Source of the DNA: Naegleria gruberi
Lineage: Eukaryota
Direction: 5' to 3' (one strand)
Length of the DNA: 64,000 nucleotides
Assembly (NCBI GenBank): GCA_000004985.1
Contig: GG738853.1
The position numbers and the translations under genes are program-made. The notes under the pieces are model-generated. The model searched no databases, was not told where the DNA came from, and worked only from the letters and a program-made list of their open reading frames with translations. Within the stretch, counting starts at the first letter, position 1, and each line of letters begins with the position of its first letter. Positions 2,826-60,020 of this stretch are shown here, piece by piece.

Positions 2826-4683
2826 ATGCAAGAAGGAATAACAACGTCGTATGGCACATCAGCTGATGATGGCAATTATTATTATCATCAGAGTCATCCC
2901 GAAGGAGAAACATCATCTCCTTCAATATTATTAAATTCTAATACTATTAATAATAATAACAATGATGATGATATTACTAGTAGAGAAGAAGAACATGGAA
3001 TGGAACAAGGTAATATTAAAATAGTCAAACGATATGAAGACATGTCGAGCGACATGATTAAATCCTTCAAAAGAAGGGAGAGAAAATTACATTTTGAAGA
3101 TAAAAGTGATAAGACTTCAACGTTGGCAAGGCTTTGGTCTGGAGTGTTTAAAACTAGTAGAAATAACAATGAAGGAAATCAAGAAGAAGAAAGGGATTTA
3201 CTTCATGATGATGATAACGAAAATTCCGAGTTGAACTTTTCAATTAATGAAGAACATTTTGCTTTAAAGAAGGGTAATGGAAATAAGAGAAGGAAAAAGA
3301 GGGATTTTCCATTATTTACGAGAAAGACTAATTTATTCTTGACAGTTTTCAATTTAATTAATGATATCTTGTCACCTGGTACCATGTCTATGAGTCAAAT
3401 GATTTCTCAGAGTGGTGTTTGGATGTCAATTGTTAGTGTAACGTTTTTTGGAATGATTACTTCATTTACTTTGATTTTGTTATATGAAATGTCGAGAGGA
3501 CATTTAAAAACGAGTTTGGCTAGTCTTGCAGAGAAGGCATATGGTAAACCTGGTACAATTTTGACATGGTATGTTGTTTTGCATGTTAATGTACTCAAGT
3601 TTAATTTTCACATAATTTCTGAAACTTTTGAATAATATTCATGAAAATGCATTTTAAACATGCATGAAATATAGTATATTCATATTTATTTTCAATTTTG
3701 GAGGAGCTTGTGGCATGTACATTATGTTTGGAGAAGTTGCTGGAGATTTATTATTATATTTATTTGATGATGTTCCTAATATTTTCATTAGTAGAACTGC
3801 AATCTTGTTGTACTTGACTGCATTTTTGATTCCTATTGCACTAATGAAAAACCTTTCGAGTTTTGCCTTTACATCATTTATTTCGGTTAGTTCAGTCTTG
3901 ATTATTACTGGACTTATTATGTTTGAGTCAATTTTCGGATATAGATCCATTCCTAGTCCATCAGATGCTTACAATTTTGTCCATCCGCAATTTTTATCAT
4001 CCATTGCTGGTTTATCCTTTATTTATGTTTCTCATGATATTGTCTTTCACTGTTTTGGTGAAATGAGAAGACCAACAAGGACTAGATTTTACACAGTCGT
4101 TTTCACAGTTGTCTTTTTAACTATGGCCACCATTTTTGCAATTGGCTTGTCAGGGTATTTCCTCTTTTATGATAAGAATTTAACAGAGGGTAACATTTTG
4201 GATTTATTACCACGTTCATATGGATTGGCAATTGTTGCTCGTTTACTCTTGATTTTGGACATTGCACTCTCAGTACCTTTTGCATTATTCATGCCTCGTG
4301 ATGGTGTCAAGACCATTGTTGAAAGCATCTTTCCAAAGTTTTCAGTTTGGATTAATATGACCAAGTGGAGAAGAGAAACTTACCATGTGATTGTCACATT
4401 GAGTATTGTTGCAATTGCTTGTGGTGTTGGATTGGGAGTTACTGACCTTGGAATGTTCTCAGATCTTTGTGGTGGTGTTTCTGCAACATCATTGGCCTAC
4501 ATTATTCCACCTGCCTTATTCTTGAAATTGGACCCTTGGAAAGGATGCTGCAGTAATAGGACAGGTCTATTCAGAGCAGTTGTTAAGGTTATATGTATTA
4601 TTGTCCTTACAATTGGTGTTACATGTTTTGCTAGTAGTATTTTCAGTGTTATTTATCACACATTCATTCTTCATGATGCTTAA
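2826..4683 (+). CDS. Amino acid transporter, Aa_trans/SLC36-38-like (exons 2826..3568, 3675..4683; 106-nt intron GTATGT..AG)
   Basis: FNLINDILSPG...SGVWM, EKAYGKPG and GGACGMYIMFGEVAGD motifs typical of amino-acid/auxin permeases, followed by about 9 further hydrophobic segments. The splice restores the reading frame. Confidence 0.55.
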
Positions 4684-7144: not shown

Positions 7145-10100
7145 TTAGTTTAATAATGGAGCTTGTTCCAAGTCTTGTTTCTTTTTAAATAGTTTCTTGA
7201 TATTATTCCAATTAGAGTAGTAAGAAACTTTTCCCTTGATTAAATTCGTCAAAGACTCCTCATCTTGTTGATAAATAATTATCAATGAAACTATTCGAAA
7301 GAAGATACCAAATACTGGAATCAAAACAATGCATAAATTCAAATCTTCAATTTTGTAATCGAATAAATCCAACGAAGATTGAATATCGAAAATGTTCATA
7401 TAGTTTCTAATTTCCATAATGTAGAGAGCTTCTTGTGCGTATCGAATATATGAGACGAAACTTAACCAATACAATGGAGGAACCTCCTGTCTCATCTGAG
7501 CAAGTGTAGGTCTAGAACCACTCACTAATTGCAACACTAACACAAAAATGGCACCTGCCAATTGAATTAATTCCAATTTGATAGTTAAACTGACAAGCAT
7601 TCCAATGCCAAATGTCGTAAAATGCAAAAGGAATAGAATTAAATAATACTCCCAGAATGAGGCAGTTGGAGAGTACAATGAAAAGAATATTGAAAGAAAG
7701 ACAATCGGTCCAAATACCATATTTGGAATCTGTTCTAAATTCTTTGCAATAAAATAGGCAAAAACGGACAAACCACTTGAACGTTCCTTCTTGAAAATTA
7801 CTTGAACTGATTTGGTTCCAAAGGTTCCAAGTGAAGACATGATTCCACATAATCCTAAAACCAAAGGAACAGTACTTGCAACATTGATTATTGGATTGTT
7901 TAAAGGATAGCCACAGATTTTCCTAATTGGGGATGGACACGTATTGATTATATCAACTGGCAATGGACCAATATAAGCATCCTTCAAATAAATCAATCCT
8001 AAACTCAATCCACCAATGTAAACCAACAAGCAATCAATGAAAAACGAAGCAAAATCACGAATTTTCAAAGTGAAAGATCTTTTCACACACATGTAAAAGT
8101 GAATGAGCGAATTTTGATTTCTGGCCTTTTCCTCCTGTTGTAACATCTTAATTGATGGTGTGTTGACTCGATCTTCAATGGTCACAAATTTTTCCCAAAT
8201 CTCAAACATTTCCTTACATGACAAAACTTCCACCGGAATTCCAGTTCTCTCAATTTGTGATTGATAAGTGAATTCTGGATCGTAAATTGCATCTAATAGG
8301 AAATCACTTGGATTAACATATGGAGGAGGAATCAGAGAAAGTTGTTTCTCGAAATAGTTCAATACTTGATTGGATTCGCCCATGTAAACGATTCGTCCAC
8401 CATTTCCCAAAAGAACAACATCGTCAAACATTTGAAAGATTTCGAATCTGGGTTGATGCAACACAGCTACTACTGTAATTCCACTCTCTGCAATGTCTTT
8501 CATGGATTTGGCAACTTCAAAACTACTGTATGCATCTAGTGAGCTAGTAGGTTCGTCCACTAAGTAGAATAAAAATTAGAAGAAACCATGAAAACTAAAC
8601 TTACAGAATAAAATGTAAGGACAAGTAACCAATTCCATTGCAATGCTAACTCTCTTACGTTGTCCACCTGATATACCTCTCTTTGATTCATCACCAATAA
8701 GAGAATGTCTTATATGATCCAAATCCAGATTTTGAATTACTCCGTTTACTATCTGATCTATTACCTTACTTGGAAAATTCAATCTAGTACGAGCGGAAAA
8801 ATAAATACACTCCTCCACAGTCAATTCTCTATACATACAATCTTCCTGTGTGACAAATGCTGTAATATTTTTAAATTCCTTAATTGATGACTTGACGCCA
8901 TTCACAAAAATGTCACCACTCACATTTGCATAACTGGCATTTCCTAAAATTGCTGATAAAAGAGTTGTTTTTCCACTTCCACTTGGTCCCATAATACAAG
9001 TTAACTTTCCAGGTCGAAACTTTCCATTCAAATTATGCAAAATTCGTTTGTTATTCGAAACTAAATCAAGTGACAATTTGTCAAATGAAATTTCCGCCTT
9101 TACATCTTTGTAAAGTCCTTTCATAATTTGTGAAACGGTCAACTTGGGAACAGTTTGAACGTAGGAACTTTCTGTAATGTGCGCCAACTTTCTCTTAATA
9201 AATTCTTCCATTCTTTTTTCTTCTTGTTTCTTGATCCAAAACTTTCTGGAAATGGAATAAATGAAATAGGTCAGAATTACAAGCCCAATAATGGATAAAT
9301 CGATCAAGAATCCAATAGCATATCCATCAAAGGATTTGGTACCTTCTGGACAATTGGAAAAGAGTGGACATGCAATTGGAAGGACAGTTCCTACTGTACA
9401 GTAATGACCTTGCGGACATTTTTTCTTCTCAATCGGAGTGGAACAATAGTAACCCGCTGGACATGGAGATGGGACATAGGATCCAACATCACAATATTGT
9501 GTCAATCGGCAATCTATCTTTGTACTTGGTGATGGACAGTAAAAACCTTTTGGACATGGATTTCTATCGGTGGTTCCAGGTGGACAATATAAAGACACAG
9601 TTTCATTAGGAATGCAAATAGTTGGCTCCATAATGGATGGCTCTTCACAGTAGGTATTCTCTGGACATGCTAAAACAGATCTATTTCCCTCCACAAATCT
9701 TCCTAAATTGCAATATTCTCCAATTGAGCATTCCTTAATTTGGTTATCTTGTAAGAATAAGCCAGGAGAGATTGGAAGAGGCGGGAAATAAGGAGTGATG
9801 CAAATGGTACCGTTGATGCAAGGTTGGGGAGATTCACTTCCTGAGGAGAAACAAGTTTCTGATCCTCGTGGAGTTTTCCATCCAAGATTTGAATATGAAT
9901 TTAAATCACTTTCGTCACTGGCAATTTCACACGAAAGTGGTTTAGTCATACCATCGAATGGACATTGAAAACCTTGAGGACACAACTGTCTAGCTCCACC
10001 ATAACAGAAATACCTCTTCTCACAATATTTCATCTGATTAGGTCGAATCGTATAGAATCCATTAGGAACTTTGTCCATAACCACATCATCAAAAGATGGA

Positions 10101-12058
10101 CACGACATTCCAGTGAAACAACTTGAAGTATATTGCCCAAATTGATTCAGTGTCACTGGTGAAGGTTTCATTGATTGACATTGTTGAGCGAAAGGTTTCA
10201 GAAACAAATCGTCTGGATTCGACTCCAATTCTTTACAAATTTGGTAAAATCGATTAGTGGATTGCAATTCCCATCTTTCTCTACTAATGGTCACAAACAA
10301 GTGTTGAGAATTTGGAGTAATTTCCATAAAATCTGCATCTCCCATTAAACTAATCTTGTTAAAATACGAAAGTATCAACCCATTATTCGAACACATTTCC
10401 TGTTGTAATCCGTAAACCAAAATTTCCTTCCCCGACTTGGAAATAAATATCTGAGAAATCCAATAATTCTGCAAAACATCCTTCATGAAATATTCTCCAT
10501 ATTGGGAAATTAATTCAATAAAGCAATTTGTGTTGTTTAGATATTTTGAGCAAATTATTTCCAATTCGGGAGTTCTGATAATATTTTCACATAATTGTTG
10601 AATATCCACATCTTTTCCAAAGTCTGTATTGAAAAAGGAAGTGTAAATGTCTGGTACATTGTAAAATCGTTGTTTCATTTCTAATATGGTTTCGCCTTTC
10701 ATTAGTTTGATTTCGGTGAATGTTTCGAATGATTTGGTGCATTCTCCTGTTGAAATATCAAAGTAAAAACCATCAGCAATTTGACATGTTTCGTTTCTTC
10801 CAACTGGATTACTGGAATTTCTTTCTGAAAATCTAAAAAAATCATAATTTGCAAATTCCAACAAGTTTCGAACATGTAAACTATTTGTTCCATTCGAAAG
10901 TTGAATGGCAATAATCAAGTTTAGTCCCTGGGCTTGATGAGCAATGACCTTAAAGCATGAAGATTTATAAAAATCGACTCTTCTAATTTCTTCAGCTGCC
11001 AACGAAGCACTCAAAATAGTTTCATCCTTATTGGTGAGATAGAAAGTGGACGAATCTATTTCATTCATATCCAAATACATATTCCTCTTTTGTAATTCAA
11101 TGATTTTCACTTGATCATTGGATGAAATCATCAACAACAATCTTTCGTATTGAAAATAGCTCGTTGTCAAGGCATTTCTAAATCCACCAACTTGATTTTT
11201 AAAACTAAACTGCAAACTATTCAAACTCTTGATGGTAATGTGAAATTCCAATTCATGAGAACAATCTTTCAATTTGTAAAATTTCATTACATTGGTGTCA
11301 TTTGTCAATTTCTCAACAATATTCAAATAAATTGAATCCTCAAATTCGAATATACGAATCATATTCGAAGGATCTGTCAACTCAAATGTTGCACAAGTTT
11401 CAATAGATGAAATATCAAAAGTTTTTGCCTTAAATAATGAAAGACTATTTCCATACGAAATGGTCGCCACAAAATAATCCGTTCCATTTGTAAATGCTGT
11501 CAAAGTTCTGACATTACTGCCGTCACTTGTCTTTCCTACATGAACAGTTTCTCCTGTGTTGAAATTAATTAAAATGATATGTCCAGAAATCAACCCCAAA
11601 ACAATAAATCTCCTTGTTTCATTCTCTTCATCTTGAAATTCAATTGTTGTAATCTTGGAAATGTATTTACATTTATCACGAGGTGAAATTAGTTTGGAAT
11701 AGTCCAGTTTCGAACTGCTATGTGGATGGATCAGTGTGCCATTCATGTAACTGTATACATTCGGATCAGATGTTGAACATATTGCTCCATCTTCAACATT
11801 CAACAAGAAATCTTCATCACTAAACAGAAATGGAACACTCGCAAAAGGATTCGAATATTTACACCACGAAGGTTGTATATCAGAGTTAATTAATTCCTCA
11901 TGTGAACACAACTCTTGTCTAAATGCAGCACCACCACTCTTGTAACACAAATTGCAATTGACCCATTTGATAATTGAAAACAATGAAATTGTGATGAAAA
12001 ATAGAAATAAAAAGCGATGTTTGTTTGAGTTGGAAACACGTGTCGACTTGTGTTTCAT
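7145..12058 (-). CDS. ABCG-type half-transporter with a large N-terminal extracellular cysteine-rich domain (exons 8605..12058 and 7145..8559; 45-nt intron GTAAGT..TTAG)
   Basis: Signal/anchor, then ~850 aa with repeated CPxGxYC/CPEGT cysteine motifs, then one TM. Walker A is GPSGSGKTTL, signature is SGGQRKRVSIAMEL, and D-loop LDEPTSSLD is restored by the splice. A 6-TM domain follows the NBD (ABCG order). Start chosen at the Met preceding the hydrophobic signal (12058); the ORF is open up to 12139. Confidence 0.7.
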
Positions 12059-12316
12059 TCTGTTTTTTTCTCTTAATTGCAAATAGAAAGTTTTGGGAAA
12101 CAAATGAAACAACATAATGTAAATTCCATGATCTTGCAATTATAATTATGAAATTGGAATGTAATTTGAATATAGGATCTAAATAGGAGTTAAAAATGCT
12201 GACAATGACATTTTGTAGTCATGGGGTGGCCATTGAGCAAACCTTTATCTTTGGAGAATCTAAAACTATTAGTTTTTGGATATGGATAACAAAAATTACT
12301 AAAAACATTAAAAGAT

Positions 12317-27648: not shown

Positions 27649-28674
27649 TTACAATTTATTATTTGCTTTTAAAATTTGCAAGTAATTTATCTTATTCACA
27701 GGTGCTGATGATTTCTCACTGATCTGTTCCACTTTCAGTTCGGAAATCAAATGCTCAGGATGTTTGTAACGTTTCGAATTTAAACACCAAACTCCAAAAC
27801 CTTTCATTGCTTCCTTAATCGAGTTTCTTACTTGACAAGTTTCCATCCTTTCCAATTCCATAAGAAAATCATACAATCTAGCAATAGTCATCAAGAAACT
27901 CTGTTCTGTCGATTGTTTAGTTTCATTTTGTAAGCAAATGGCATGGTTGACCAAAGTTCCATCCCTCAATTCTTTAGGAAAAGATGCCAAATCATTAATT
28001 AGGAAGAAACATTCATTGGAAATTCGTTGAAACTTTTCAATTTCCAAAGTGGTCACAAAATCGAATTGTAATTTAGCCATTTCCATATATATCGAACCTA
28101 GAGAATCAATTCTTCGCCACTGATCACATTTTTCAACTGAAATTTGACTTCCATCAGCCCAGTAAGTTGCCATCTCCAAGCTTGTTTTGAAATATTTCAC
28201 CATTTCGAATTGTAATGTTCGAATCTGAAACTGTGTGAAGAATGAACAAGAGTTGAATAATTCGTCCATCACATAGAGACCTAAACGAATCGATGGATTG
28301 TGGGTTCTTGAAAAGTACTCTTCTTGACCTTCAAATTTCTCAACCAGTTGTATGTGCGTGATCAACTCCTTTCGAATAGTTTCGTCTACATCTTTCAAAC
28401 AATCACAAGCGTCATCAACAATTGACAAGTACAATGTAATCAATGCAAATATCCTCATAATCTTGTAAGAAACTTGTGGAAACGGTCCACATGCGCATCC
28501 ACAACAATCAGCAATTCCATACTTGTGATAATTATCTGAAGGAAATTTGAAAACTTGAAAACACAAATTTTGTAATTCTGTTGTAATTTCCTTGCAATGT
28601 TTGTTGATTTTTGGTGAAGAAGGATTCCATAGCGTTGTTATTTGTTGATAGTATTCATCGATTGACCAATTCAT
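27649..28674 (-). CDS. Class I terpene synthase (microbial/amoebal-type, ~340 aa)
   Basis: Aspartate-rich motif IVDDACD (DDxxD) at about residue 86. NSE/DTE triad LINDLASFPKE at about residue 228. Spacing and length match single-domain sesquiterpene-synthase-like enzymes. Confidence 0.6.
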   Translation of the reverse strand: MNWSIDEYYQQITTLWNPSSPKINKHCKEITTELQNLCFQVFKFPSDNYHKYGIADCCGCACGPFPQVSYKIMRIFALITLYLSIVDDACDCLKDVDETIRKELITHIQLVEKFEGQEEYFSRTHNPSIRLGLYVMDELFNSCSFFTQFQIRTLQFEMVKYFKTSLEMATYWADGSQISVEKCDQWRRIDSLGSIYMEMAKLQFDFVTTLEIEKFQRISNECFFLINDLASFPKELRDGTLVNHAICLQNETKQSTEQSFLMTIARLYDFLMELERMETCQVRNSIKEAMKGFGVWCLNSKRYKHPEHLISELKVEQISEKSSAPVNKINYLQILKANNKL

Positions 28675-29172
28675 TTCTTCAAGAATAGTTTTCGGTTTCG
28701 TCTATTTTTCTGTTGTTACTTTTTCGAAACTGCTTGTGGATTCTCAAAATAATGGAGCTAGTAAGCAAGGTCGGCTTGTTTACTCAACACCTTGTGTTTG
28801 ATCTATGATGAAAATGAAGCGCTTTTCATGGAGGAACGTCACTTGTCTTGACTCTTTGTGACTTTTATGGACGTAGGAAATAGTAAGTTTGGCAAGTTGA
28901 GCATTGACCCAATTGGGATTTATTCAATAATTATCTTGTTTCCATTCCATATTTACCTATTTTCTTCCATCATTCTTAATAACAATATGAAAAGAAATTA
29001 TTAGAAACTGTAGTTTCATTGTGGTGTTACTGGCAACAGTGTTAGAGAATGATATTGGTTTCAACAATAACGTTTTTCACTGACTAAATGATTATATTGA
29101 AATTTATAAAGTGTTGATTATAATAATTATCATTCAACGCATTGTATGGAAAACATTCCTGATATTAAAAAA

Positions 29173-29290
29173 GACTACAGCACCACAGGTTCCCAAGTTG
29201 TCTCCAACCTCAGTACTGATGTGGCTCGACTATACTTAACTTCTCAAATCGGACGGGATGAGGTGCATTCATCGTGATATGGCCGTAGCC
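29173..29290 (-). rRNA. 5S ribosomal RNA gene
   Basis: Reverse complement reads GGCTACGGCCATATCAC...CATCCCGTCCGATTTGAGAAGTTAAG...GTACTGAGGTTGGAGACAACTTGGGAACCTGTGGTGCTGTAGTC. Helix I ends pair, loop-A GGCCATA, loop-C GATCTG-like, GAAGTTAAG, and terminal GGTGCTGTAG. The GGTTGGAGACAAC block resembles the Dictyostelium 5S as I recall it. Confidence 0.65.
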
Positions 29291-29501: not shown

Positions 29502-30356
29502 TTATTTATCTTTCGAATATTGTTTCTTTTCGGTGAATTTCACAAAATTAAGGTTAGTTCCAATCAATTTATCAATTAAACAATACCACGCCCCATAGCA
29601 GTCTTGATAATGTGTATGATGATAGGTATGCTCACTGGCATCCAATAAAATTGACTTGGTGACAGGACTAGTTCTGTAATATTTCATAAAATCAAATCCT
29701 GAATGAGAATGAATTGCTTCAAACGTCTTAACCACAGTCCAAACAAAAGACCAAAATAAATGAGCATGTGTCAATAAAGGACCACTCATGACAGCTGGCA
29801 CTGTCACTAAAAATTCAATTGGATGAAAATATTGAGAACCAATTGAGACTGAGTATTTGATTTCATGATGAAGGTAATGAACATACTTGTAAACATATGG
29901 AATTTTGTGTAATAGAAAGTGAACTATGAATGTGAAAATGTCATCACATAAAATAAATATTGGAATGATGACTAATTGACTGACAAGTGACTCGTTTTGT
30001 AAATCTTGATAGCTGCGACTGAAAGGAGGTGGAAAGAACACACCCATCAATATACTCACTGGTAATCCAATTAAAATATGAATTTTCCAAACTTGTTTTA
30101 CAATTTTCATGTAAAGTTCTGAATCGAGAGGCGAGTTTTTTGGATTTATCAAGAATTGATCCATAAAATTCAAATATTTGTTGATTATCCAATGAACTGA
30201 ATGTCCATTTAGTTGTCTTGTCTTTGCTATTTGATAAATAACAAAAGGTCCATTCAAAAACCAAAAAGAAATTATTTGACAAATGACAGGATAAATTCCA
30301 TAGCATACCCATGAAGGAACTGATTCAATGTAGGTCTTCCATAAGTACTCCAACAT
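29502..30356 (-). CDS. Fatty-acid hydroxylase superfamily oxygenase (sterol desaturase / C4-methyl oxidase-like)
   Basis: Three His boxes (HKIPYVYKYVHYLHH, HSHSGFD, HTYHHTH) and four hydrophobic segments, typical of ERG3/ERG25/SC5D-type di-iron membrane oxygenases. Confidence 0.6.
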   Translation of the reverse strand: MLEYLWKTYIESVPSWVCYGIYPVICQIISFWFLNGPFVIYQIAKTRQLNGHSVHWIINKYLNFMDQFLINPKNSPLDSELYMKIVKQVWKIHILIGLPVSILMGVFFPPPFSRSYQDLQNESLVSQLVIIPIFILCDDIFTFIVHFLLHKIPYVYKYVHYLHHEIKYSVSIGSQYFHPIEFLVTVPAVMSGPLLTHAHLFWSFVWTVVKTFEAIHSHSGFDFMKYYRTSPVTKSILLDASEHTYHHTHYQDCYGAWYCLIDKLIGTNLNFVKFTEKKQYSKDK

Positions 30357-47464: not shown

Positions 47465-48502
47465 TTAAATGAATAATGATTTCCAACTATCTGGTAATCG
47501 TTTAAAGAAGGGAATATTTTGGAATGTTTTAGGTTGATAGACAATTTCAATGGATGGTTTCGACTCTAAATCAAAGGCAAATGGCACATCACATTCAACA
47601 TCTAAATAATATTCAATCTTTAAAAAGGTTCCATTGGTGGAAGGTAAAGTTTTTCTAGGAATGAAAAAATTTAAAACTCTCTCAGTATGTGTTTTGGCAG
47701 AAACTCCTTCAAATTTCATTCTGTAAACTTCGACTGGACCTTGCTTAATTGTTCTACGACCTTCTTTATCATTGGTTTCTCCATAAGTGGTAAGTTTGAG
47801 AGCTGCTTCATCACAAGAAATTGTTGCAGTTCTAAATAATTTAACTTTCAATGATTGAACATCTTTCCTTGAATCATTTTGAATGCTCAATTTGATTGGA
47901 ATAACTTCACATGGTTGGAAAAAGTTCTTTTCCATTTCTAGTTTCATTTTCAATTTACCAATACCTCCAAAAAGGAATTTCTTCTCTTTGAAATCAGTCA
48001 CTTGTTCTCTGATAATGTTTGGAGTAATAGGAACAAGCATACTACAATATAAATCTCCAAGTCTTGCAGCTACCTTATAAATAACTGCTCCTTTGTAAAC
48101 ATCTTTACAATCTTTCATTGAAATAAAAGTGCTTGGAAGCAATCCATTGGTTGGTAATTGAATTTCGAATGGAAACGAATAATCACCTGCTTCTATTCCA
48201 CTAGGAAAGCTTTTAACAATCGGTCTCAGGTCAACCAATGCCTTTTTACCATTCAACGAATAAGAGCTAGTTCTAGTATCCAACTGTATATCAGTCACAA
48301 CTAAACCTTTAGGAGTTACACCAATCTCATCATCCAATATATGAAGTTTAGTTCTTTCCTTTCCTTTGAATATGACAATTAAATTATTAGCTGGAGAGAA
48401 TGAAGATGGCAAAAGTGGTTCAGTGAGAGAAAGATTAATTATTCCACTCACCACTTCACCAGGATGATAGAAAGGCTTGGAAAGAGTAATGAAGATTGTC
48501 AT
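47465..48502 (-). CDS. Arrestin-fold protein, paralog B (inverted relative to paralog A)
   Basis: LSKPFYHPGEVVSGIINLSL...FKGKERTKL...KFLFGG.GKLKMK...QGP.EV.RM.FEGV...LPSTNG.LK..Y.LD.ECDV is collinear with 36109..37131 at roughly 45-50% identity. Confidence 0.4.
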   Translation of the reverse strand: MTIFITLSKPFYHPGEVVSGIINLSLTEPLLPSSFSPANNLIVIFKGKERTKLHILDDEIGVTPKGLVVTDIQLDTRTSSYSLNGKKALVDLRPIVKSFPSGIEAGDYSFPFEIQLPTNGLLPSTFISMKDCKDVYKGAVIYKVAARLGDLYCSMLVPITPNIIREQVTDFKEKKFLFGGIGKLKMKLEMEKNFFQPCEVIPIKLSIQNDSRKDVQSLKVKLFRTATISCDEAALKLTTYGETNDKEGRRTIKQGPVEVYRMKFEGVSAKTHTERVLNFFIPRKTLPSTNGTFLKIEYYLDVECDVPFAFDLESKPSIEIVYQPKTFQNIPFFKRLPDSWKSLFI

Positions 48503-52115: not shown

Positions 52116-53803
52116 ATGGTGAGATGTTTTTTCAATGTTCAAATAAACTTAAAAATGCAGCAAGAATCGAACAGCGCACAGTTTCAGAATATATCATCTT
52201 CGGAATTGGAGCAAACGAGCACAACGTATGAGAGAAAAGAAGTGAAAATAATCGAATGGAAAGAATGGAAAATTGTCAAGTTTTTTAGAAGAGACAATAA
52301 AGAGAATGGAAATGGACCAAAACTTTACAAGATGAGGTGGATAATATTGCTGATTTTCGCGTTGGCAATGTTAAGTTCGTTTTTGGCTCAGTTGACTTTC
52401 TCTTCTCTTGGGTGAGTATATCGAATATTTCGAATTAAAGCTCATTTTAAATGAAACCATGAATGAAATTGAATTCTACCATTACAATCAGGGTAATTAT
52501 CATGCAGTATTATAAAATTCCACACCAGAATTGGAAAGTCAACATGATGAGTTTGATATTTCTTATAGTTCATCTTCCCTCTTCATTGATAGTGAGTTTC
52601 GTAATGAAACGTTTTGGATTAAGATGTTGCATGATCATATTCGGTTCACTAACATTTATTGGAATGTGGATTCGTTGTTTTGGCTATAAGAAAGGAGACG
52701 AAACCTATTTATGGATTGCATTTTGTGGCCAAACTTTCATTGCTTTTGCCCAACCATTCCTTACGAGCATTTCGGGTCTTTTGGGAGTAAATTGGTTTGG
52801 AGATAAGGAAAGAACACTGGTCCAAGTTGCAGCTCTACTTACGGCAGCTCTCGGAGGCGGAGTCGCATTTGCTATCGGACCTAGTTTAATTACGATGGGC
52901 AAGAGAGAAATGCATGGATCAGAGATTGGAATGCTAGCTTATTTATCTTCCCAGGCCTTTATTTCAACTGCTTGTTTATTGTTGATTGTTATTTTCTTTA
53001 AGGATCGACCACCAACTCCACCAGTACTAATTAAGGAAATTCAAACAATGGAGAAATTGGACGAAAACGAACAAATGTTAACAGAGGAGAGCAGATTGAC
53101 AATTAATTTGACCACTGATGACATCAATATCGAAAAAGGCTTTGAATCTTTCAATTCGAAAGATATTTATCCAGAACAAACTTTTTGGATAGGTTTTAAA
53201 AAGTTAATGACCTCTCCTCATTTCATAATGTTAACAATTTCATCATCCTGTCTGATTTCTGTCTTTCAAACAATGTCCATTCTCGATCAGATCATTAACC
53301 CAAAAGGTTACACCACCTTTGACACTGCAAATCTTAACATTGTCAATTTGGTATTTGTGGTATTTGGATGTTTTGGATTGAGTATTGTATTTGACAAGAC
53401 TAAACGTTTCAAATTGATTTCTTGCATCAGTAGCTTTATGGCATGTTTAGGATTTGCTTGTTTTGCCATTATCTTGCAATGGAACAAGTCAGATTTCACA
53501 ATAATTTTGGTTTATCTGTCAATGGTCGTTATCGGTTGTTCAGCCATTCCCAGTTTACCTCTAATTTCTCAAATGATAGTCTATTCAACCTATCCAATCC
53601 ATCCAGCAACAAGTCTTGTGATATCAAGTGCCTTCAGTACAATTTGGAATGTAATAATGTGGGTCATTGTAAATGTGCTACTGAGCGAGATGAGTAATTC
53701 ATCCAGTGTCATATTGTGGTTGAGCTTTGCGCTATTGATTGTTTCCTTTATAATGACTGTATTATTTAGAGGTAAATTCGATAATATTCTGGTCAATAAA
53801 TAG
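52116..53803 (+). CDS. Major facilitator superfamily transporter (exons 52116..52411, 52492..53803; 80-nt intron GTGAGT..AG)
   Basis: 12 predicted TM segments. The splice joins ...LAQLTFSSLG|VIIMQYY in frame. MFS-type loop between TM6 and TM7. Start could instead be the ATG at 52155. Confidence 0.55.
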
Positions 53804-53888
53804 AAACTGTTCAAAGTTTATTTAGCCAAAGTTATACTTTGTTCATTCAACGTTTTTCGAAAATTGTAAATATGATGAAAATGTGTAA

Positions 53889-53977
53889 GGCGGCTTAGCA
53901 CAGTGGCAGTGCATCAGTCTTGTAGGCAGCAATGCTTAGATAACTGAGGGTCGAGGGTTCAATTCCCTCAGTCGCCT
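53889..53977 (+). tRNA. tRNA-Thr(UGU) with 17-nt intron
   Basis: GGCGGCT-TA-GCAC-AGTGGCA-GTGC-A-TCAGT-cTTGTa, then intron ggcagcaatgcttagat, then a-ACTGA-GGGTC-GAGGG-TTCAATT-CCCTC-AGTCGCC-T. U33 and A37 flank the TGT anticodon. The isotype call depends on the intron position. Confidence 0.6.
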
Positions 53978-54047
53978 TTTGTATTGGTGATTGCCAAGAA
54001 AAACAAGCCTTAATTGTGAATAAGGGATATTTTCTTTTATCAATGTA

Positions 54048-54120
54048 TCCCCCTTAGCTCAGTCGGTAGAGCGTCAGACTGTTAATCTGCAGGTCGGTGG
54101 TTCGAGCCCACCAGGGGGAG
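54048..54120 (+). tRNA. tRNA-Asn(GUU)
   Basis: TCCCCCT-TA-GCTC-AGTCGGTA-GAGC-G-TCAGA-CTGTTAA-TCTGC-AGGTC-GGTGG-TTCGAGC-CCACC-AGGGGGA-G (73 nt). Confidence 0.8.
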
Positions 54121-54590
54121 TTGTTTTGTTTTTGTTTACTCTAAACTTTGAACTATATTTGATATTACGAATAAGCAGAATATTTCTGAAGGCCAATTGT
54201 TATTTTCAAACGAGATATCCCGTCTAGTTGAGCTGGAAAGCTCAAAAGAAGGGAATGTTAAACTAATAAGGATTGGACGTGATATTCCCGTTCCATGATT
54301 TTTTGCGAGTTAAAACCAGTTCCAAAATCAAGCGGTTGTACAAATCAGACAAGCTAACTGGATTTAAGCATACGAACCAACCTGAAAGAAATGTTTTCTA
54401 ATAGAACCTTCCATTGTAAGCTTTCCAGTATACTGAACATTAAAGATCTCAAAGTCTACTAAGTTGAATTACTATTGCAAATCACCATAATGATTGCTGA
54501 TGACATTGCTGCTACTACCACTCATTAAGTGTGTGATTAATTGTTGTTGATTTGTTGGAGAATCAGATAACACAATCAAAAAAACACAAC

Positions 54591-57500
54591 ATGTCTGGTA
54601 AACCAAGATATTCCACACTTGTGGAAATGCTCGAGCATGCAACACAAGAAAGAACATCCTCTCTCATTTACAGACAATTAGATTACTCCAATGATGTGGT
54701 GGGGGAGGAGAAGAAACTTTTCTCTGACTTATTGAAACCTTCAAGTATCAAGGAGATTAGTTATTGTGATTTCTTAAAGAAAGTGAAATCTCTCTCCACT
54801 CTCATTCAAACTCAAGCCAAAAGTGGTGATAGAGCTTTGCTAATCTTTGAACCAGGTATTAACTTTATTGCTGCTTTCTTTGCTACCTTGTTTGCTGGTG
54901 TTATTGCTGTACCTGTCTATCCTCCAAAGAACAAGGAAGAATTCAACAAGTTGAGTAAGATTCTGGCCGATTCTAAACCAAGTTTATTTCTGTTATCCAA
55001 GCTCATTCATCAAAACTTTGAGCAACATGGCATTAACAAGTTTTTTACCAAGATTAATTCTCAACAACATGTCGAGAATCAGGTAATACAAGATGTACTC
55101 AGTGGTTGTCTGGAAACTTATGAAGGTTTTAGTCTTTTGATTTCAGACGCGGTTGACTACAGTGATAAACAATTGTATACATATTGGAAACACCCAAACA
55201 TCGACACAGATTCGGTTGCTTTCCTCCAATATACCTCTGGATCAACCAGTGATCCAAAAGGTGTCATTCTCACTCATAGAAACCTTCTCAACAATCTTCA
55301 TGTTATGAACTATGCCCTACGATACTCTAATCAGAAACATGTTGTGCTCTGGCTTCCTCCTTACCATGACATGGGTTTAATTGCTGGTTTACTTGAAATT
55401 GTCTATTCGAATTGTAGTGCTACTGTATTATCTCCAATCTCCTTCCTGGAAAATCCATTACGTTGGATGTGGGCAATCAATGAATATAGAGCCACATTGC
55501 TGGGTGCTCCTAATTTTGGTTATGATCTCTGTGTAAAGCACTTTCTAGCTCATGAGAAGGAATACAGAGAAAGTTTTAAATTATTCGATTTTAGCAGTTT
55601 GGAAATTGTGGCATGTGGTGCAGAACCTATCAGAGCAGAAACTATGGAAAGTTTCAGTACACTCTTCTCTGAATTTGGATTGAAAAAACAAGCCATGTAT
55701 CCATGTTATGGATTGGCTGAGAGTACTCTCTATGTCACTGGTGTAAACTATATGAAAGGTTTCGACTTTACCACAATTGACAACAAGAACCAATACATTA
55801 TCAAGAATGGAACAGTCGAACAAACACAAACTCATCAAAAATTCGTTAATTGTGGTGTCAACTATGATGAAAATCAATCCATTAAAATTGTCGATCCAGA
55901 ATCTTCTACAGAAATGGAGAATGGAAAGGTTGGTGAAGTTTGGTTGTCAAGTCCAAGTGTCGCTCAAGGTTATTGGGAGAAACCAGAACTTTCTCAAGAG
56001 GTTTTCCATGCACGAGTGGTTGGAGATGATAGGGAGTATCTCAGAAGTGGAGATTTGGGTTTCATGTTGAATGGAAACTTGTACATTACTGGTCGTCGTA
56101 AGGATGTCATTATTTTGAATGGTGTGAATTATTATCCTCAAGATGTAGAATTGGCATGTTCTAAATGTCATGCACAGATTAGAACTGGGTGTGTGGTGGC
56201 TGTTAATATTGCTGATCGTGATGGACAGGATCGATTGGTGATAATTGCTGAAACTAAAGTTGTTTCGAATAGTGAGACACAAGTATTGGAGAGTATTGTA
56301 CAATCCATACGATCTGCAATTGCCGAATCGATGGGAATTCCAATGTATAATGCCCTATCGACCATCCTTCTCATGACTAAAGGAGGCATTCTCAAGACCA
56401 CAAGTGGTAAACTGAGACGTCAACCAACTAAACAAGCATTTCTCAATAACAAACTTCCTCCAAAACTAATCGTTCACAGATGGGATCAGGAGAAACTCTC
56501 AGATAGCGCTTCTCAACCAAGTACTCCAACAGAGATTGGATTGGCTAAAATTTGGAAAGAATTAACAGGAATTGATCCATCACTTTCGAATAACTTTTTC
56601 CTTTTGGGAGGAAGCTCTATGAGTTTGATTCAGCTAAAATCTAGAATCCAACATGTTTTCAATGTAATTATAAGTTTGACTGATTTGGTAATGTCGCCAA
56701 CATTGCAATTGATGGCTAAATTGGTCGATCAACACAGCAATCAATGTAATACTAGCTCTGTACAAATTTCAAAGAGAGAAAGGACAAGTGACACTTTAGA
56801 ATTATCAAACTCACAAACGAGATTCTGGTTCTTACATCACTTGATCGATAATCCTGCCATTCACAATGTTTTTGCAGGTGTTCGTTTGAAAGGTGACTTG
56901 GATAAACAAGCTTTAGAAAATTCCATTACCAAACTTGTAGAACGTCATGAAAGTTTACGTACAAGCTTTCAAGAAACAGAGATGTCACCAATGCAACACA
57001 TTCATTCTGAAATTTCTCTCAAATTAAATTCAATTAGTTTGAAACATCTCACTAGTGAAGAAGAAAAGAATTTGGAATTGAACAAGTTTCTCTTTGATGA
57101 GGTGAACGCACCATTCAACTTGAATGAAGCTCCTCTTCTCAGAGCTAACTTGATCGAAATGTCAGAGTGTGATCATGTTTTGGCCATGACTTTCCATCAT
57201 ATCATAATCGATGGATGGTCCATGAATTTACTTGTTGAAGAGCTAGTTCAATACTATCTGGCTTTTAAGAATCATCAATCGCCAATTCTTCCACAAGTTC
57301 TTCAATATGGTGATTACACACTGTGGAGCAATCAACAACAATCAATGAATGAAACTCAATTAAAATATTGGGAAGAAAAACTCTCCAATTTACCAGAATC
57401 TATCAAATTGCCAACAGAAGGCGAAAACTTATCCAAATCATTTGATGGATCTCATTTCTGGTTTGCAATCCCAGAAACTCTCGTTAACTCCTTAAGAAAG

Positions 57501-60020: not shown

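What the first reader, a model, noticed from the sequence alone, without database searches (positions are those of the whole stretch)
54591..60020. Intronless FAAL-ACP-C-A-PCP nonribosomal peptide synthetase (lipo-initiation module with no release domain) embedded in an intron-bearing eukaryotic locus
The sequence shows every core motif of a complete initiation-plus-elongation NRPS unit. There is an N-terminal fatty acyl-AMP ligase (YTSGSTSDPKGV, GDLGFM..LYITGRRKD..NYYPQDVE). A carrier domain follows (GGSS), then a condensation domain (HHIIIDGWS) and a full adenylation domain with A3-A10 motifs. A second carrier domain (GGNS) is next, and the ORF then stops with no TE, R or terminal C domain. 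By established NRPS logic this architecture loads a fatty acid, condenses it onto one amino acid, and leaves an N-acyl-aminoacyl thioester. That intermediate would be a lipo-amino-acid or short lipopeptide starter, needing trans release or a partner. NRPSs of this bacterial lipo-initiation type are rare to absent in amoebozoan-like or small-eukaryote genomes. The gene has no introns over 5.4 kb, but its codon usage is already AT-rich like its neighbours. That suggests an old horizontal acquisition that has ameliorated, or an unrecognised native family.
Basis: partly seen in the sequence, partly recalled or inferred. Interest (0 to 1): 0.85.

Follow-up and report, generated by a model that had tools for sequence, protein, structure and literature searches.

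The report
Annotated bacterial-type lipopeptide synthetase in Naegleria
The window is Naegleria gruberi DNA, and the flagged gene is a real, intact, single-exon enzyme of bacterial type that should join a fatty acid to one amino acid. It is already annotated in public databases as a non-ribosomal peptide synthetase, its product is unknown, and it is an ordinary case of an old bacterial gene settled in a protist.

Summary
ORF 54591-60020 (+) encodes 1809 aa with the domain order FAAL, carrier, C, A, carrier, and it stops 5 aa after the last carrier with no TE, R or terminal C domain. It is 100% identical to XP_002680530.1/D2V677, "non-ribosomal peptide synthetase [Naegleria gruberi]".

N. lovaniensis has a single-exon orthologue at 54% identity with the same architecture, all catalytic motifs and an identical A-domain specificity code, DVEGTGVIDK. 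Every other relative found is bacterial or metagenomic, at 30-40% identity. Codon usage matches the neighbours, which include arrestins, a spliced ABCG gene and intron-containing tRNAs. It is therefore neither contamination nor a pseudogene, but an old, fully ameliorated bacterial acquisition.

Four refinements:
- The host is a heterolobosean, not an amoebozoan.
- The C domain and first carrier resemble elongation-type C and PCP domains rather than classical starter-C and FAAL-ACP domains.
- The specificity code matches none of about 1,050 bacterial A domains. It is nearest to Orn/Lys-type codes.
- The A5 motif is unusual (NVCGGTE).

The gene is also bracketed by a 282/293-nt inverted repeat of tRNA-Thr plus tRNA-Asn, which is absent in N. 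lovaniensis.

The existence and type of the gene are already known. The product, substrate and release step are not.

The parts
54591..60020 (+). Single-exon NRPS gene (1809 aa plus stop). It equals XP_002680530.1 / EFC47786.1 / UniProt D2V677, Naegleria gruberi.
   Evidence: ORF list and translation. 100% identity over 100% of the length to P0001.
54591..56465 (+). Fatty acyl-AMP ligase (FAAL) domain, aa 1-625. Motifs: A3 YTSGSTSDPKG, YGLAEST, SGDLGF, GRRKD, TSGKLRR.
   Evidence: NCBIfam FAAL models at E 1e-128 to 1e-122. The best solved structures are FAALs: 7r7e at 1e-120 and 3kxw at 3e-103, aligned through the insertion region. The A5-A6 spacing is 75 aa, against 54 aa in the same protein's amino-acid A domain, which is the FAAL-specific insertion. 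PF23024 is present.
56508..56765 (+). Carrier domain 1, aa 640-725, with LGGSSM; the predicted phosphopantetheine serine is S676. It is PCP-like rather than FAAL-ACP-like.
   Evidence: PP-binding hit. It scores 63-66 bits against a profile of inter-module PCPs and 33-38 bits against a profile of FAAL-adjacent carriers from 102 bacterial relatives.
56790..58124 (+). Condensation domain, aa 734-1178, with HHIIIDGWS at aa 869-877. It is elongation-like.
   Evidence: PF00668 at 333 bits. It is closer to the second (elongation) C than to the first (post-FAAL) C in 105 of 116 bimodular relatives. Profile scores are 460 against 418 bits. Best PDB matches are Txo1/Txo2/TycC6 at 211-246 bits, against 122 bits for the SrfA-A starter C.
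58173..59735 (+). Amino-acid adenylation domain, aa 1195-1715. The specificity code is DVEGTGVIDK and the A5 motif is the unusual NVCGGTE.
   Evidence: TIGR01733 at 524 bits, above its cutoff of 317. The code was extracted against PheA, with known Ser/Gly/Ala/Gln/Leu/Thr codes recovered from relatives as a control.
59793..60017 (+). Carrier domain 2 (PCP), aa 1735-1809, with IGGNSI; the predicted serine is S1768. The ORF ends here.
   Evidence: PP-binding at aa 1739-1804. The tail after the domain is 0-5 aa in N. gruberi and 4 aa in N. lovaniensis.
53852..54133 (+). Left arm of the inverted repeat. It carries tRNA-Thr(TGT, 91 nt, with intron) at 53888-53978 and tRNA-Asn(GTT) at 54048-54120.
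   Evidence: the repeat finder I1/I2, ARAGORN, Rfam, arm alignment.
60133..60425 (-). Right arm of the inverted repeat. It carries tRNA-Asn(GTT) at 60146-60218 and tRNA-Thr(TGT) at 60299-60389.
   Evidence: The arms are 95-97% complementary, with an 11-nt indel in the spacer and 2 substitutions in the tRNA-Thr intron.
52463..53803 (+). MFS transporter gene immediately upstream, outside the repeat. It is a possible exporter, but the link to the NRPS is only positional.
   Evidence: PF07690 at 6.6e-20. No MFS gene lies next to the N. lovaniensis orthologue.

Best explanation
This is a functional Naegleria gene of bacterial ancestry that encodes a one-module lipo-initiation NRPS.

Shown:
- The domain order and intact catalytic motifs.
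- A conserved orthologue in a second Naegleria species.
- Host-like codon usage and a eukaryotic genomic context.

Inferred from standard thiotemplate logic:
1. The FAAL adenylates a fatty acid and loads it on carrier 1 (Ser676).
2. The A domain adenylates one amino acid and loads it on carrier 2 (Ser1768).
3. The C domain makes an N-acyl-aminoacyl thioester on carrier 2.

The amino acid is probably one with a cationic side chain such as Orn or Lys. This rests on Glu at code position 239, Asp at 331, and the nearest known codes, and confidence is low.

With no TE, R or terminal C domain, the product must leave in one of three ways: a trans-acting hydrolase or acyltransferase, plain hydrolysis, or, if the residue is Orn or Lys, self-cyclisation to an N-acyl lactam.

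The gene entered the Naegleria lineage before N. gruberi and N. lovaniensis split, and it has since fully taken on host composition.
For: Architecture and motifs.

Identity to the annotated N. gruberi protein, and a single-exon orthologue in N. lovaniensis (54% identity, same architecture). Per-domain identity is 49-63% with every catalytic motif retained, and the 10-residue code is identical. Together with a 10^-57 chance of an open frame, this indicates purifying selection.

Host-like GC3 and RSCU.

Eukaryotic flanks.

All non-Naegleria relatives are bacterial or metagenomic at 30-40% identity, for the full length, for A-PCP and for FAAL-carrier. Nothing closer exists among 1.84 billion cluster representatives.

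Bacterial precedents exist for FAAL followed by a PCP-like carrier and an elongation-like C, for example P0003, P0060 and P0075.

The nearest codes are DVGDTGAIDK (7/10), the Orn-type DVGEIGSIDK, and the Lys-like DxExxGxxxK group.
Against: - No expression, phosphopantetheinylation or product data can be obtained with these tools.
- The specificity code matches no A domain examined, so the substrate call is weak.
- In the A5 motif the near-invariant Tyr (904 of 930 bacterial domains) is Cys and Pro is Gly. This could alter or weaken adenylation.
- No release enzyme or conserved partner gene lies next to the gene in either species.
- HGT is inferred from hit distribution, not from a rooted phylogeny, and no donor lineage is resolved.
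Confidence: 0.7

Rival explanations
1. The protein is only the first subunit of a longer assembly line. The N-acyl-aminoacyl thioester is passed in trans to another NRPS/PKS, or to a stand-alone C or TE encoded elsewhere in the genome, so the final product is larger than a lipo-amino acid.
For: All 116 bacterial relatives analysed are bimodular. Many also end at a carrier domain with a 20-40 aa tail, which is typical of first subunits of multi-protein lines. Naegleria genomes are reported to hold many PKS genes (PMC9928731).
Against: No NRPS, PKS, C or TE gene lies in the 54 kb upstream or 4 kb downstream in N. gruberi, or within 10 kb either side in N. lovaniensis. The Naegleria proteins end 0-5 aa after the carrier, so there is no docking tail. 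Only two Naegleria proteins appeared among the NRPS hits.
Confidence: 0.2
2. The gene is a decaying or functionless relic of an old transfer.
For: The A5 motif is non-canonical. There is no release domain. The gene appears to be missing from N. fowleri, because no third Naegleria hit was found, so it is dispensable in at least one lineage.
Against: The open frames are intact at 5.4 kb in two species that share only 54% identity. All catalytic residues and the full specificity code are conserved. The chance of an open frame this long is 10^-57. The deviant A5 motif is itself conserved.
Confidence: 0.06
3. The stretch is bacterial contamination or an assembly mis-join.
For: All non-Naegleria homologues are bacterial.
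Against: The codon usage and GC3 are indistinguishable from the neighbours. Intron-containing eukaryotic tRNA genes lie within 500 bp on both sides. An orthologue sits among eukaryotic genes in an independent assembly of N. lovaniensis. The nearest bacterial protein is only about 35% identical.
Confidence: 0.01

Closest known systems
Bacterial lipo-initiation NRPS subunits with an in-cis FAAL (FAAL-T-C-A-T-C-A-T +/- C/TE). Examples are metagenomic and genomic proteins of Pyrinomonadaceae/Blastocatellia, Tumebacillus, Scytonema and Corallococcus (P0003-P0120).
   Same: The N-terminal FAAL-carrier-C-A-carrier order is the same, with 30-35% identity over 96-100% of the Naegleria protein. A subset (P0003, P0060, P0075, P0087, P0077) also has a PCP-like first carrier and an elongation-like first C.
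   Different: All are bimodular or longer, whereas only the two Naegleria proteins stop after one module. Their A-domain codes are standard (Ser, Gly, Ala, Gln, Leu, Thr and so on), and none has DVEGTGVIDK or the NVCGGTE A5 motif.
Stand-alone and PKS-linked cyanobacterial FAALs (PDB 7r7e, 'Polyketide synthase'), the Legionella FAAL (PDB 3kxw) and mycobacterial FadD32/FadD28
   Same: These are the best structural relatives of aa 1-625, at E 1e-120 to 1e-50, with the same insertion region and the same DIP2-like C-terminal subdomain.
   Different: They hand the acyl chain to PKS or free ACP partners, not to an in-cis NRPS module. Identity is only about 35-50%.
Classical starter-C lipoinitiation, for example surfactin SrfA-A C1 (PDB 8f7f). 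From my own knowledge, also daptomycin DptE/DptF with DptA.
   Same: The chemical outcome is the same: N-acylation of the first amino acid of a lipopeptide.
   Different: The Naegleria C domain is much closer to elongation C domains (211-246 bits) than to the SrfA-A starter C (122 bits). The acyl donor here is an in-cis carrier loaded by a fused FAAL.
   Same: These are eukaryotic genes of the same general build, also attributed to bacterial HGT.
   Different: None of them appeared among the best 120 hits of any of my three searches, so they are not close relatives. The paper gives no architecture, substrate or locus analysis for Naegleria.

Membership tests
Modular non-ribosomal peptide synthetase (thiotemplate) | Adenylation domain scoring above curated thresholds, with core motifs A3-A10 | tested here: met
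   TIGR01733 scores 524 bits against a cutoff of 317, and PF00501 scores 465 bits against 29.9. Motifs A3, A4, A7, A8 and A10 are canonical. A5 is the deviant NVCGGTE.
Modular non-ribosomal peptide synthetase (thiotemplate) | Condensation domain with the HHxxxDG active site | tested here: met
   PF00668 scores 333 bits against a cutoff of 30.6. HHIIIDGWS is conserved in both species.
Modular non-ribosomal peptide synthetase (thiotemplate) | Carrier domains with the GGxS phosphopantetheine attachment serine | tested here: met
   PF00550 hits twice. GGSS (S676) and GGNS (S1768) are conserved in both species.
Modular non-ribosomal peptide synthetase (thiotemplate) | Holo-enzyme formation and product synthesis | not testable with these tools
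   This needs biochemistry. No PPTase was found in the window.
Fatty acyl-AMP ligase (FAAL) | Best sequence matches are FAALs rather than acyl-CoA ligases | tested here: met
   NCBIfam FAAL models cover aa 8-622 at E 1e-128, but at 429 bits they fall below the whole-protein cutoff of 775. The top PDB hits are FAALs. The named homologues are 'fatty acyl-AMP ligase'.
Fatty acyl-AMP ligase (FAAL) | FAAL-specific insertion of about 20 aa in the N-terminal domain | tested here: met
   The A5-A6 spacing is 75 aa in N. gruberi and 84 aa in N. lovaniensis, against 54 and 52 aa in the amino-acid A domain. The region aligns to the FAAL 7r7e with only short gaps.
Fatty acyl-AMP ligase (FAAL) | Transfers acyl-AMP to a carrier protein and not to CoA | not testable with these tools
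   This needs an enzyme assay.
Starter-type condensation domain (Cs) | Closer to known starter C domains than to elongation (LCL/DCL) C domains | tested here: not met
   The SrfA-A starter C (8f7f) scores 122 bits, against 211-246 bits for Txo1/Txo2/TycC6. The elongation C2 beats the post-FAAL C1 in 105 of 116 relatives. The profile difference is +31 to +42 bits towards C2.
NRPS chain-release domains (TE, R, terminal C) | Any domain after the last carrier | tested here: not met
   The ORF ends 5 aa after PP-binding. There is no PF00975, NAD-binding or extra Condensation hit. The same is true in N. lovaniensis.
Bacterium-to-eukaryote horizontally transferred gene | Nearest relatives outside the genus are bacterial, with a patchy distribution in eukaryotes | tested here: met
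   Only N. gruberi and N. lovaniensis among eukaryotes appear in three searches of 5.8 billion proteins. All other named hits are bacterial. No closer cluster representative exists.
Bacterium-to-eukaryote horizontally transferred gene | Rooted phylogeny that nests the eukaryotic gene inside a bacterial clade, with an identifiable donor | not tested
   No ML tree was built. Identities of 30-40% to many phyla (Cyanobacteria, Acidobacteria, Myxococcota, Firmicutes) give no clear donor.

The most novel reading that the evidence does not exclude
Naegleria uses a release-domain-free, one-module NRPS to make a previously unseen cationic lipo-amino acid, such as an N-acyl-ornithine or N-acyl-lysine. 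The A domain's specificity code and A5 motif have no bacterial counterpart. The product frees itself by side-chain lactamisation. The compound would serve in bacterial predation, competition or signalling, and it was lost in the pathogen N. fowleri.
Probability: 0.12. Interest if true: 0.55.

Novelty: already known. Interest (0 to 1): 0.3.

Why it matters
NRPS genes are rare in protists, and none from Heterolobosea has a known product. This one is intact and conserved in two free-living Naegleria species, and it appears to be absent from the annotated proteins of the pathogen N. fowleri. A small lipo-amino-acid metabolite of unknown role may therefore exist in these amoebae. That can be tested by metabolomics and by simple A-domain and FAAL assays.

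For a genome scan the value is mainly negative. The feature is real, but it is already annotated and is explained by ordinary, ancient HGT.

Tried and rejected
1. Exhaustive HMMER search of 1.84 billion cluster representatives with FAAL-carrier-C. The ranking was swamped by giant multi-module NRPSs whose scores add up over modules. The only usable result was that nothing is closer than about 35% identity outside the Naegleria cluster.
2. The full-length bit-score ranking is inflated in the same way by bimodular proteins, so I re-scored domain by domain.
3. Synteny. tblastx of the N. lovaniensis flanks against the window found only a distant ABCG paralogue. There are no tRNAs and no inverted repeat at the N. 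lovaniensis locus. The tRNA repeat is therefore not an ancestral part of the gene's locus.
4. Literature. Searches on Naegleria with NRPS or non-ribosomal peptide, on the accession numbers, and on the specificity code strings found no study of this gene. The supplements of the FAALPred paper are not held.
5. Looking for a release or partner enzyme among all ORFs of at least 150 aa in the window found nothing suitable.
6. The bacterial promoter and terminator scan upstream of the gene was no better than shuffles, and it is irrelevant for a eukaryote.
7. Contamination and pseudogene readings were considered and rejected.
8. Substrate assignment by the nearest whole-domain relatives was rejected. 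The closest A-PCP hits are mostly Gly-type (DILQLGLIWK), which shows that overall similarity does not track the code.
Full report
**Observation**

The window holds an uninterrupted ORF on the + strand from ATG 54591 (an in-frame TTG lies at 54552) to the stop at 60018-60020, giving 1809 aa. With the ORF's own base composition, the chance of 1809 stop-free codons is about 10^-57.

Pfam finds two AMP-binding domains, one Condensation domain (aa 734-1178), two PP-binding domains, the DIP2-like C-terminal subdomain that accompanies FAALs (aa 505-623), and AMP-binding_C (aa 1623-1703). All score far above the gathering thresholds. NCBIfam aligns aa 8-622 end to end with fatty acyl-AMP ligase models (E 1e-128 to 1e-122). 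It aligns aa 1223-1639 with the amino-acid adenylation model TIGR01733 at 524 bits, against a cutoff of 317.

The protein ends 5 aa after the second carrier. No TE, reductase or extra C domain is present. The next feature, 126 nt downstream, is a tRNA gene on the other strand.

**Whose DNA it is**

The translated ORF is 100% identical over its full length to XP_002680530.1 / EFC47786.1 / UniProt D2V677, named 'non-ribosomal peptide synthetase [Naegleria gruberi]', on a 696-kb scaffold.

The rest of the window is plainly eukaryotic:
- Two arrestin-domain genes, BTB, PARP, B-box, papain-type protease and PI-PLC genes.
- A lone 5S rRNA gene.
- tRNA-Thr genes of 91 nt that carry an intron.
- An ABCG transporter whose Walker B motif (PYILF|LDEPTSSLD) is split by a 45-nt GTAAGT...TTAG intron at 8560-8604.

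The host is a heterolobosean (Discoba), not an amoebozoan.

**Is it a genuine, functional host gene?**

Codon usage of the NRPS is indistinguishable from the other 23 long ORFs in the window. Its GC3 is 0.324, within the neighbours' range of 0.23-0.35, and its RSCU correlation with the rest is 0.956, the highest of all.

Naegleria lovaniensis has an orthologue (XP_044549142.1, 1837 aa, 54% identity). It is also a single exon and sits among eukaryotic genes for DnaJ/zuotin, F-box-LRR, a protein kinase, Kelch and ABCG. Per-domain identity is 49-52% for FAAL, carriers and C, and 63% for the A domain. Every catalytic motif is retained: FAAL A3/A5/A7/A8/A10, GGSS, HHIIIDGWS, A-domain A3-A10 and GGNS.

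Two intact 5.4-kb frames at this divergence, with conserved active sites, indicate purifying selection. They rule out contamination, a mis-join and a pseudogene for practical purposes.

**Origin**

I ran three searches of about 5.8 billion proteins: full length, A-PCP and FAAL-carrier. Apart from the two Naegleria proteins, every named hit was bacterial, at 30-40% identity. The phyla include Cyanobacteria, Acidobacteria, Myxococcota, Tumebacillus, Chloroflexota, Legionella and Bdellovibrionales. An exhaustive HMMER pass over 1.84 billion cluster representatives found nothing closer.

No third Naegleria protein appeared, so the annotated N. fowleri proteomes seem to lack the gene. This is an inference, because it depends on those proteomes being in the collection. 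From my own knowledge, N. lovaniensis is the closest relative of N. fowleri. The simplest history is therefore one bacterial-to-Naegleria transfer before the N. gruberi / N. lovaniensis split, full amelioration, and a later loss in N. fowleri.

The donor is unresolved, and I built no rooted tree.

A 2026 survey already notes FAALs in 'two Naegleria species'. It attributes eukaryotic FAALs to HGT and reports FAAL-NRPS fusions in oomycetes, chytrids and chlorophytes (PMC12820801). I found no paper that analyses this gene itself.

**Anatomy in more detail**

1. FAAL. The best solved relatives are true FAALs: 7r7e at 1e-120, Legionella 3kxw at 3e-103, then FadD32, FadD23 and FadD28. The A5-A6 spacing is 75 aa (84 in N. 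lovaniensis), against 54 (52) in the same protein's amino-acid A domain. That is an extra 21-32 residues where the FAAL-specific insertion lies.

2. Module number. Among the best 120 full-length relatives, only the two Naegleria proteins are single-module. All bacterial ones are FAAL-(T)-C-A-T-C-A-T, with or without a C or TE. Their high total scores are inflated by the second module.

3. C domain and first carrier. The Naegleria C domain scores higher against the second (elongation) C than against the post-FAAL C in 105 of 116 relatives, with means of 262 and 207 bits. Against class profiles it scores 460 and 418 bits. In the PDB it is nearer to Txo1/Txo2/TycC6 (211-246 bits) than to the SrfA-A starter C (122 bits).

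   The first carrier scores 63-66 bits on a PCP profile but only 33-38 bits on the profile of FAAL-adjacent carriers. A minority of bacterial relatives (P0003, P0060, P0075, P0087, P0077) share this combination. It is therefore a known bacterial sub-type, not evidence for a special rearrangement. The 'starter-C' expectation is not met.

4. Specificity code. The procedure also returned textbook Ser, Gly, Ala, Gln, Leu, Thr and Asn codes from the relatives. The Naegleria code is DVEGTGVIDK in both species.

   It matches none of 932 A domains from 267 bacterial relatives, nor the A domains of the 120 closest A-PCP hits. The nearest are DVGDTGAIDK (7/10), DVGEIGSIDK and its variants (6/10), and the DxE(D/S/N)xGxxxK group (6/10). 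From my own knowledge, DVGEIGSIDK is the classical Orn code and the DxE... group is Lys-like.

   Glu at position 239 together with Asp at 331 suggests a cationic side chain. This is a weak prediction.

5. A5 motif. It reads NVCGGTE in both species. At the Tyr column, 904 of 930 bacterial domains have Tyr and one has Cys. Pro is replaced by Gly. From my own knowledge, that Tyr normally stacks on the adenine ring. The meaning of this conserved change is unknown.

**Mechanism**

By standard thiotemplate logic (inference), the steps are:
1. The FAAL makes an acyl-adenylate and loads Ser676 of carrier 1.
2. The A domain loads an amino acid on Ser1768 of carrier 2.
3. The C domain forms N-acyl-aminoacyl-S-carrier 2.

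Release is the open step. Neither species has a hydrolase, C, TE or R gene nearby, and neither protein has a docking tail. The options are a trans-acting hydrolase or acyltransferase encoded elsewhere, slow hydrolysis, or self-lactamisation if the residue is Orn or Lys. Hand-over to an unlinked partner synthetase remains the main rival, at about 0.2.

An MFS transporter gene lies just upstream (52463-53803). No such neighbour exists in N. lovaniensis, so the association is only positional.

**The locus**

The gene is bracketed by an inverted repeat: 53852-54133 and 60133-60425, 95-97% complementary. Each arm carries tRNA-Thr(TGT, with intron) followed by tRNA-Asn(GTT), pointing inward. The arms differ by an 11-nt indel in the spacer and by two substitutions in the tRNA-Thr intron. 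The arms abut the 3' ends of the convergent MFS and GTPase genes.

The N. lovaniensis locus has no tRNAs, no inverted repeat and no shared neighbours. The repeat is therefore young or homogenised relative to the gene's arrival, and it is not part of the original transfer. Its significance is unknown. It could reflect a local inverted duplication, an insertion into a palindromic tRNA pair, or chance.

**Verdict**

However, the gene is already annotated as an NRPS, and its FAAL has been noted in the literature. It fits the ordinary pattern of an old, ameliorated bacterial gene in a bacterivorous protist.

What remains open is the product, the substrate (an unmatched code and an odd A5 motif), the release step and the tRNA-repeat bracket.

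Interest is 0.3. On novelty, the existence and type of the gene are already known.

Noticed in passing
window 53852-54133 and 60133-60425: The NRPS gene is the only gene inside a 6-kb segment bounded by an inverted repeat (282/293 nt, 95-97% complementary). Each arm is an inward-pointing tRNA-Thr(TGT, intron-containing) plus tRNA-Asn(GTT) pair. The orthologous gene in N. lovaniensis has no tRNAs, no repeat and different neighbours.
   Followed up: partly
window 59058-59078 (aa 1490-1496): The A5 core motif of the amino-acid A domain is NVCGGTE in both Naegleria species. The Tyr found in 904 of 930 related bacterial A domains is Cys here, and the usual Pro is Gly.
   Followed up: partly
window 27649-28674 (-): An ORF of 341 aa matches microbial-type terpene synthase (PF19086, 1.5e-11). 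It is a second secondary-metabolism gene, about 26 kb from the NRPS. A fatty-acid hydroxylase / sterol desaturase family ORF lies next to it at 29502-30356 (-).
   Followed up: no
window 29172-29290 (-): A solitary 5S rRNA gene (98 bits) lies between the terpene synthase ORF and the fatty-acid hydroxylase ORF. It is not linked to other rRNA genes.
   Followed up: no
window 7145-12139 (-): An ABCG-type transporter is split into two ORFs by a 45-nt GTAAGT...TTAG phase-1 intron at 8560-8604, inside the Walker B motif (PYILF|LDEPTSSLD). An amino-acid transporter at 2826-4683 (+) is likewise split into two ORFs.
   Followed up: partly
window 44050-44688 (-): An ORF of 212 aa ends in a SHOCT domain (PF09851, 1e-10). 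As far as I know that domain is mostly bacterial, so this may be another transferred gene.
   Followed up: no
window 36109-37131 (+) and 47465-48502 (-): Two arrestin N+C domain paralogues lie 10 kb apart.
   Followed up: no
window 54489-54527 (+): A short upstream ORF (ATG...TAA, 12 codons) sits in the presumed 5' leader of the NRPS gene, 64 nt before its start codon.
   Followed up: no
L002 19511-23025: In the metagenomic contig that carries the best bacterial relative (P0003), the downstream NRPS region is broken into many short Condensation and AMP-binding ORFs. This is probably frameshift errors of a long-read assembly.
   Followed up: no
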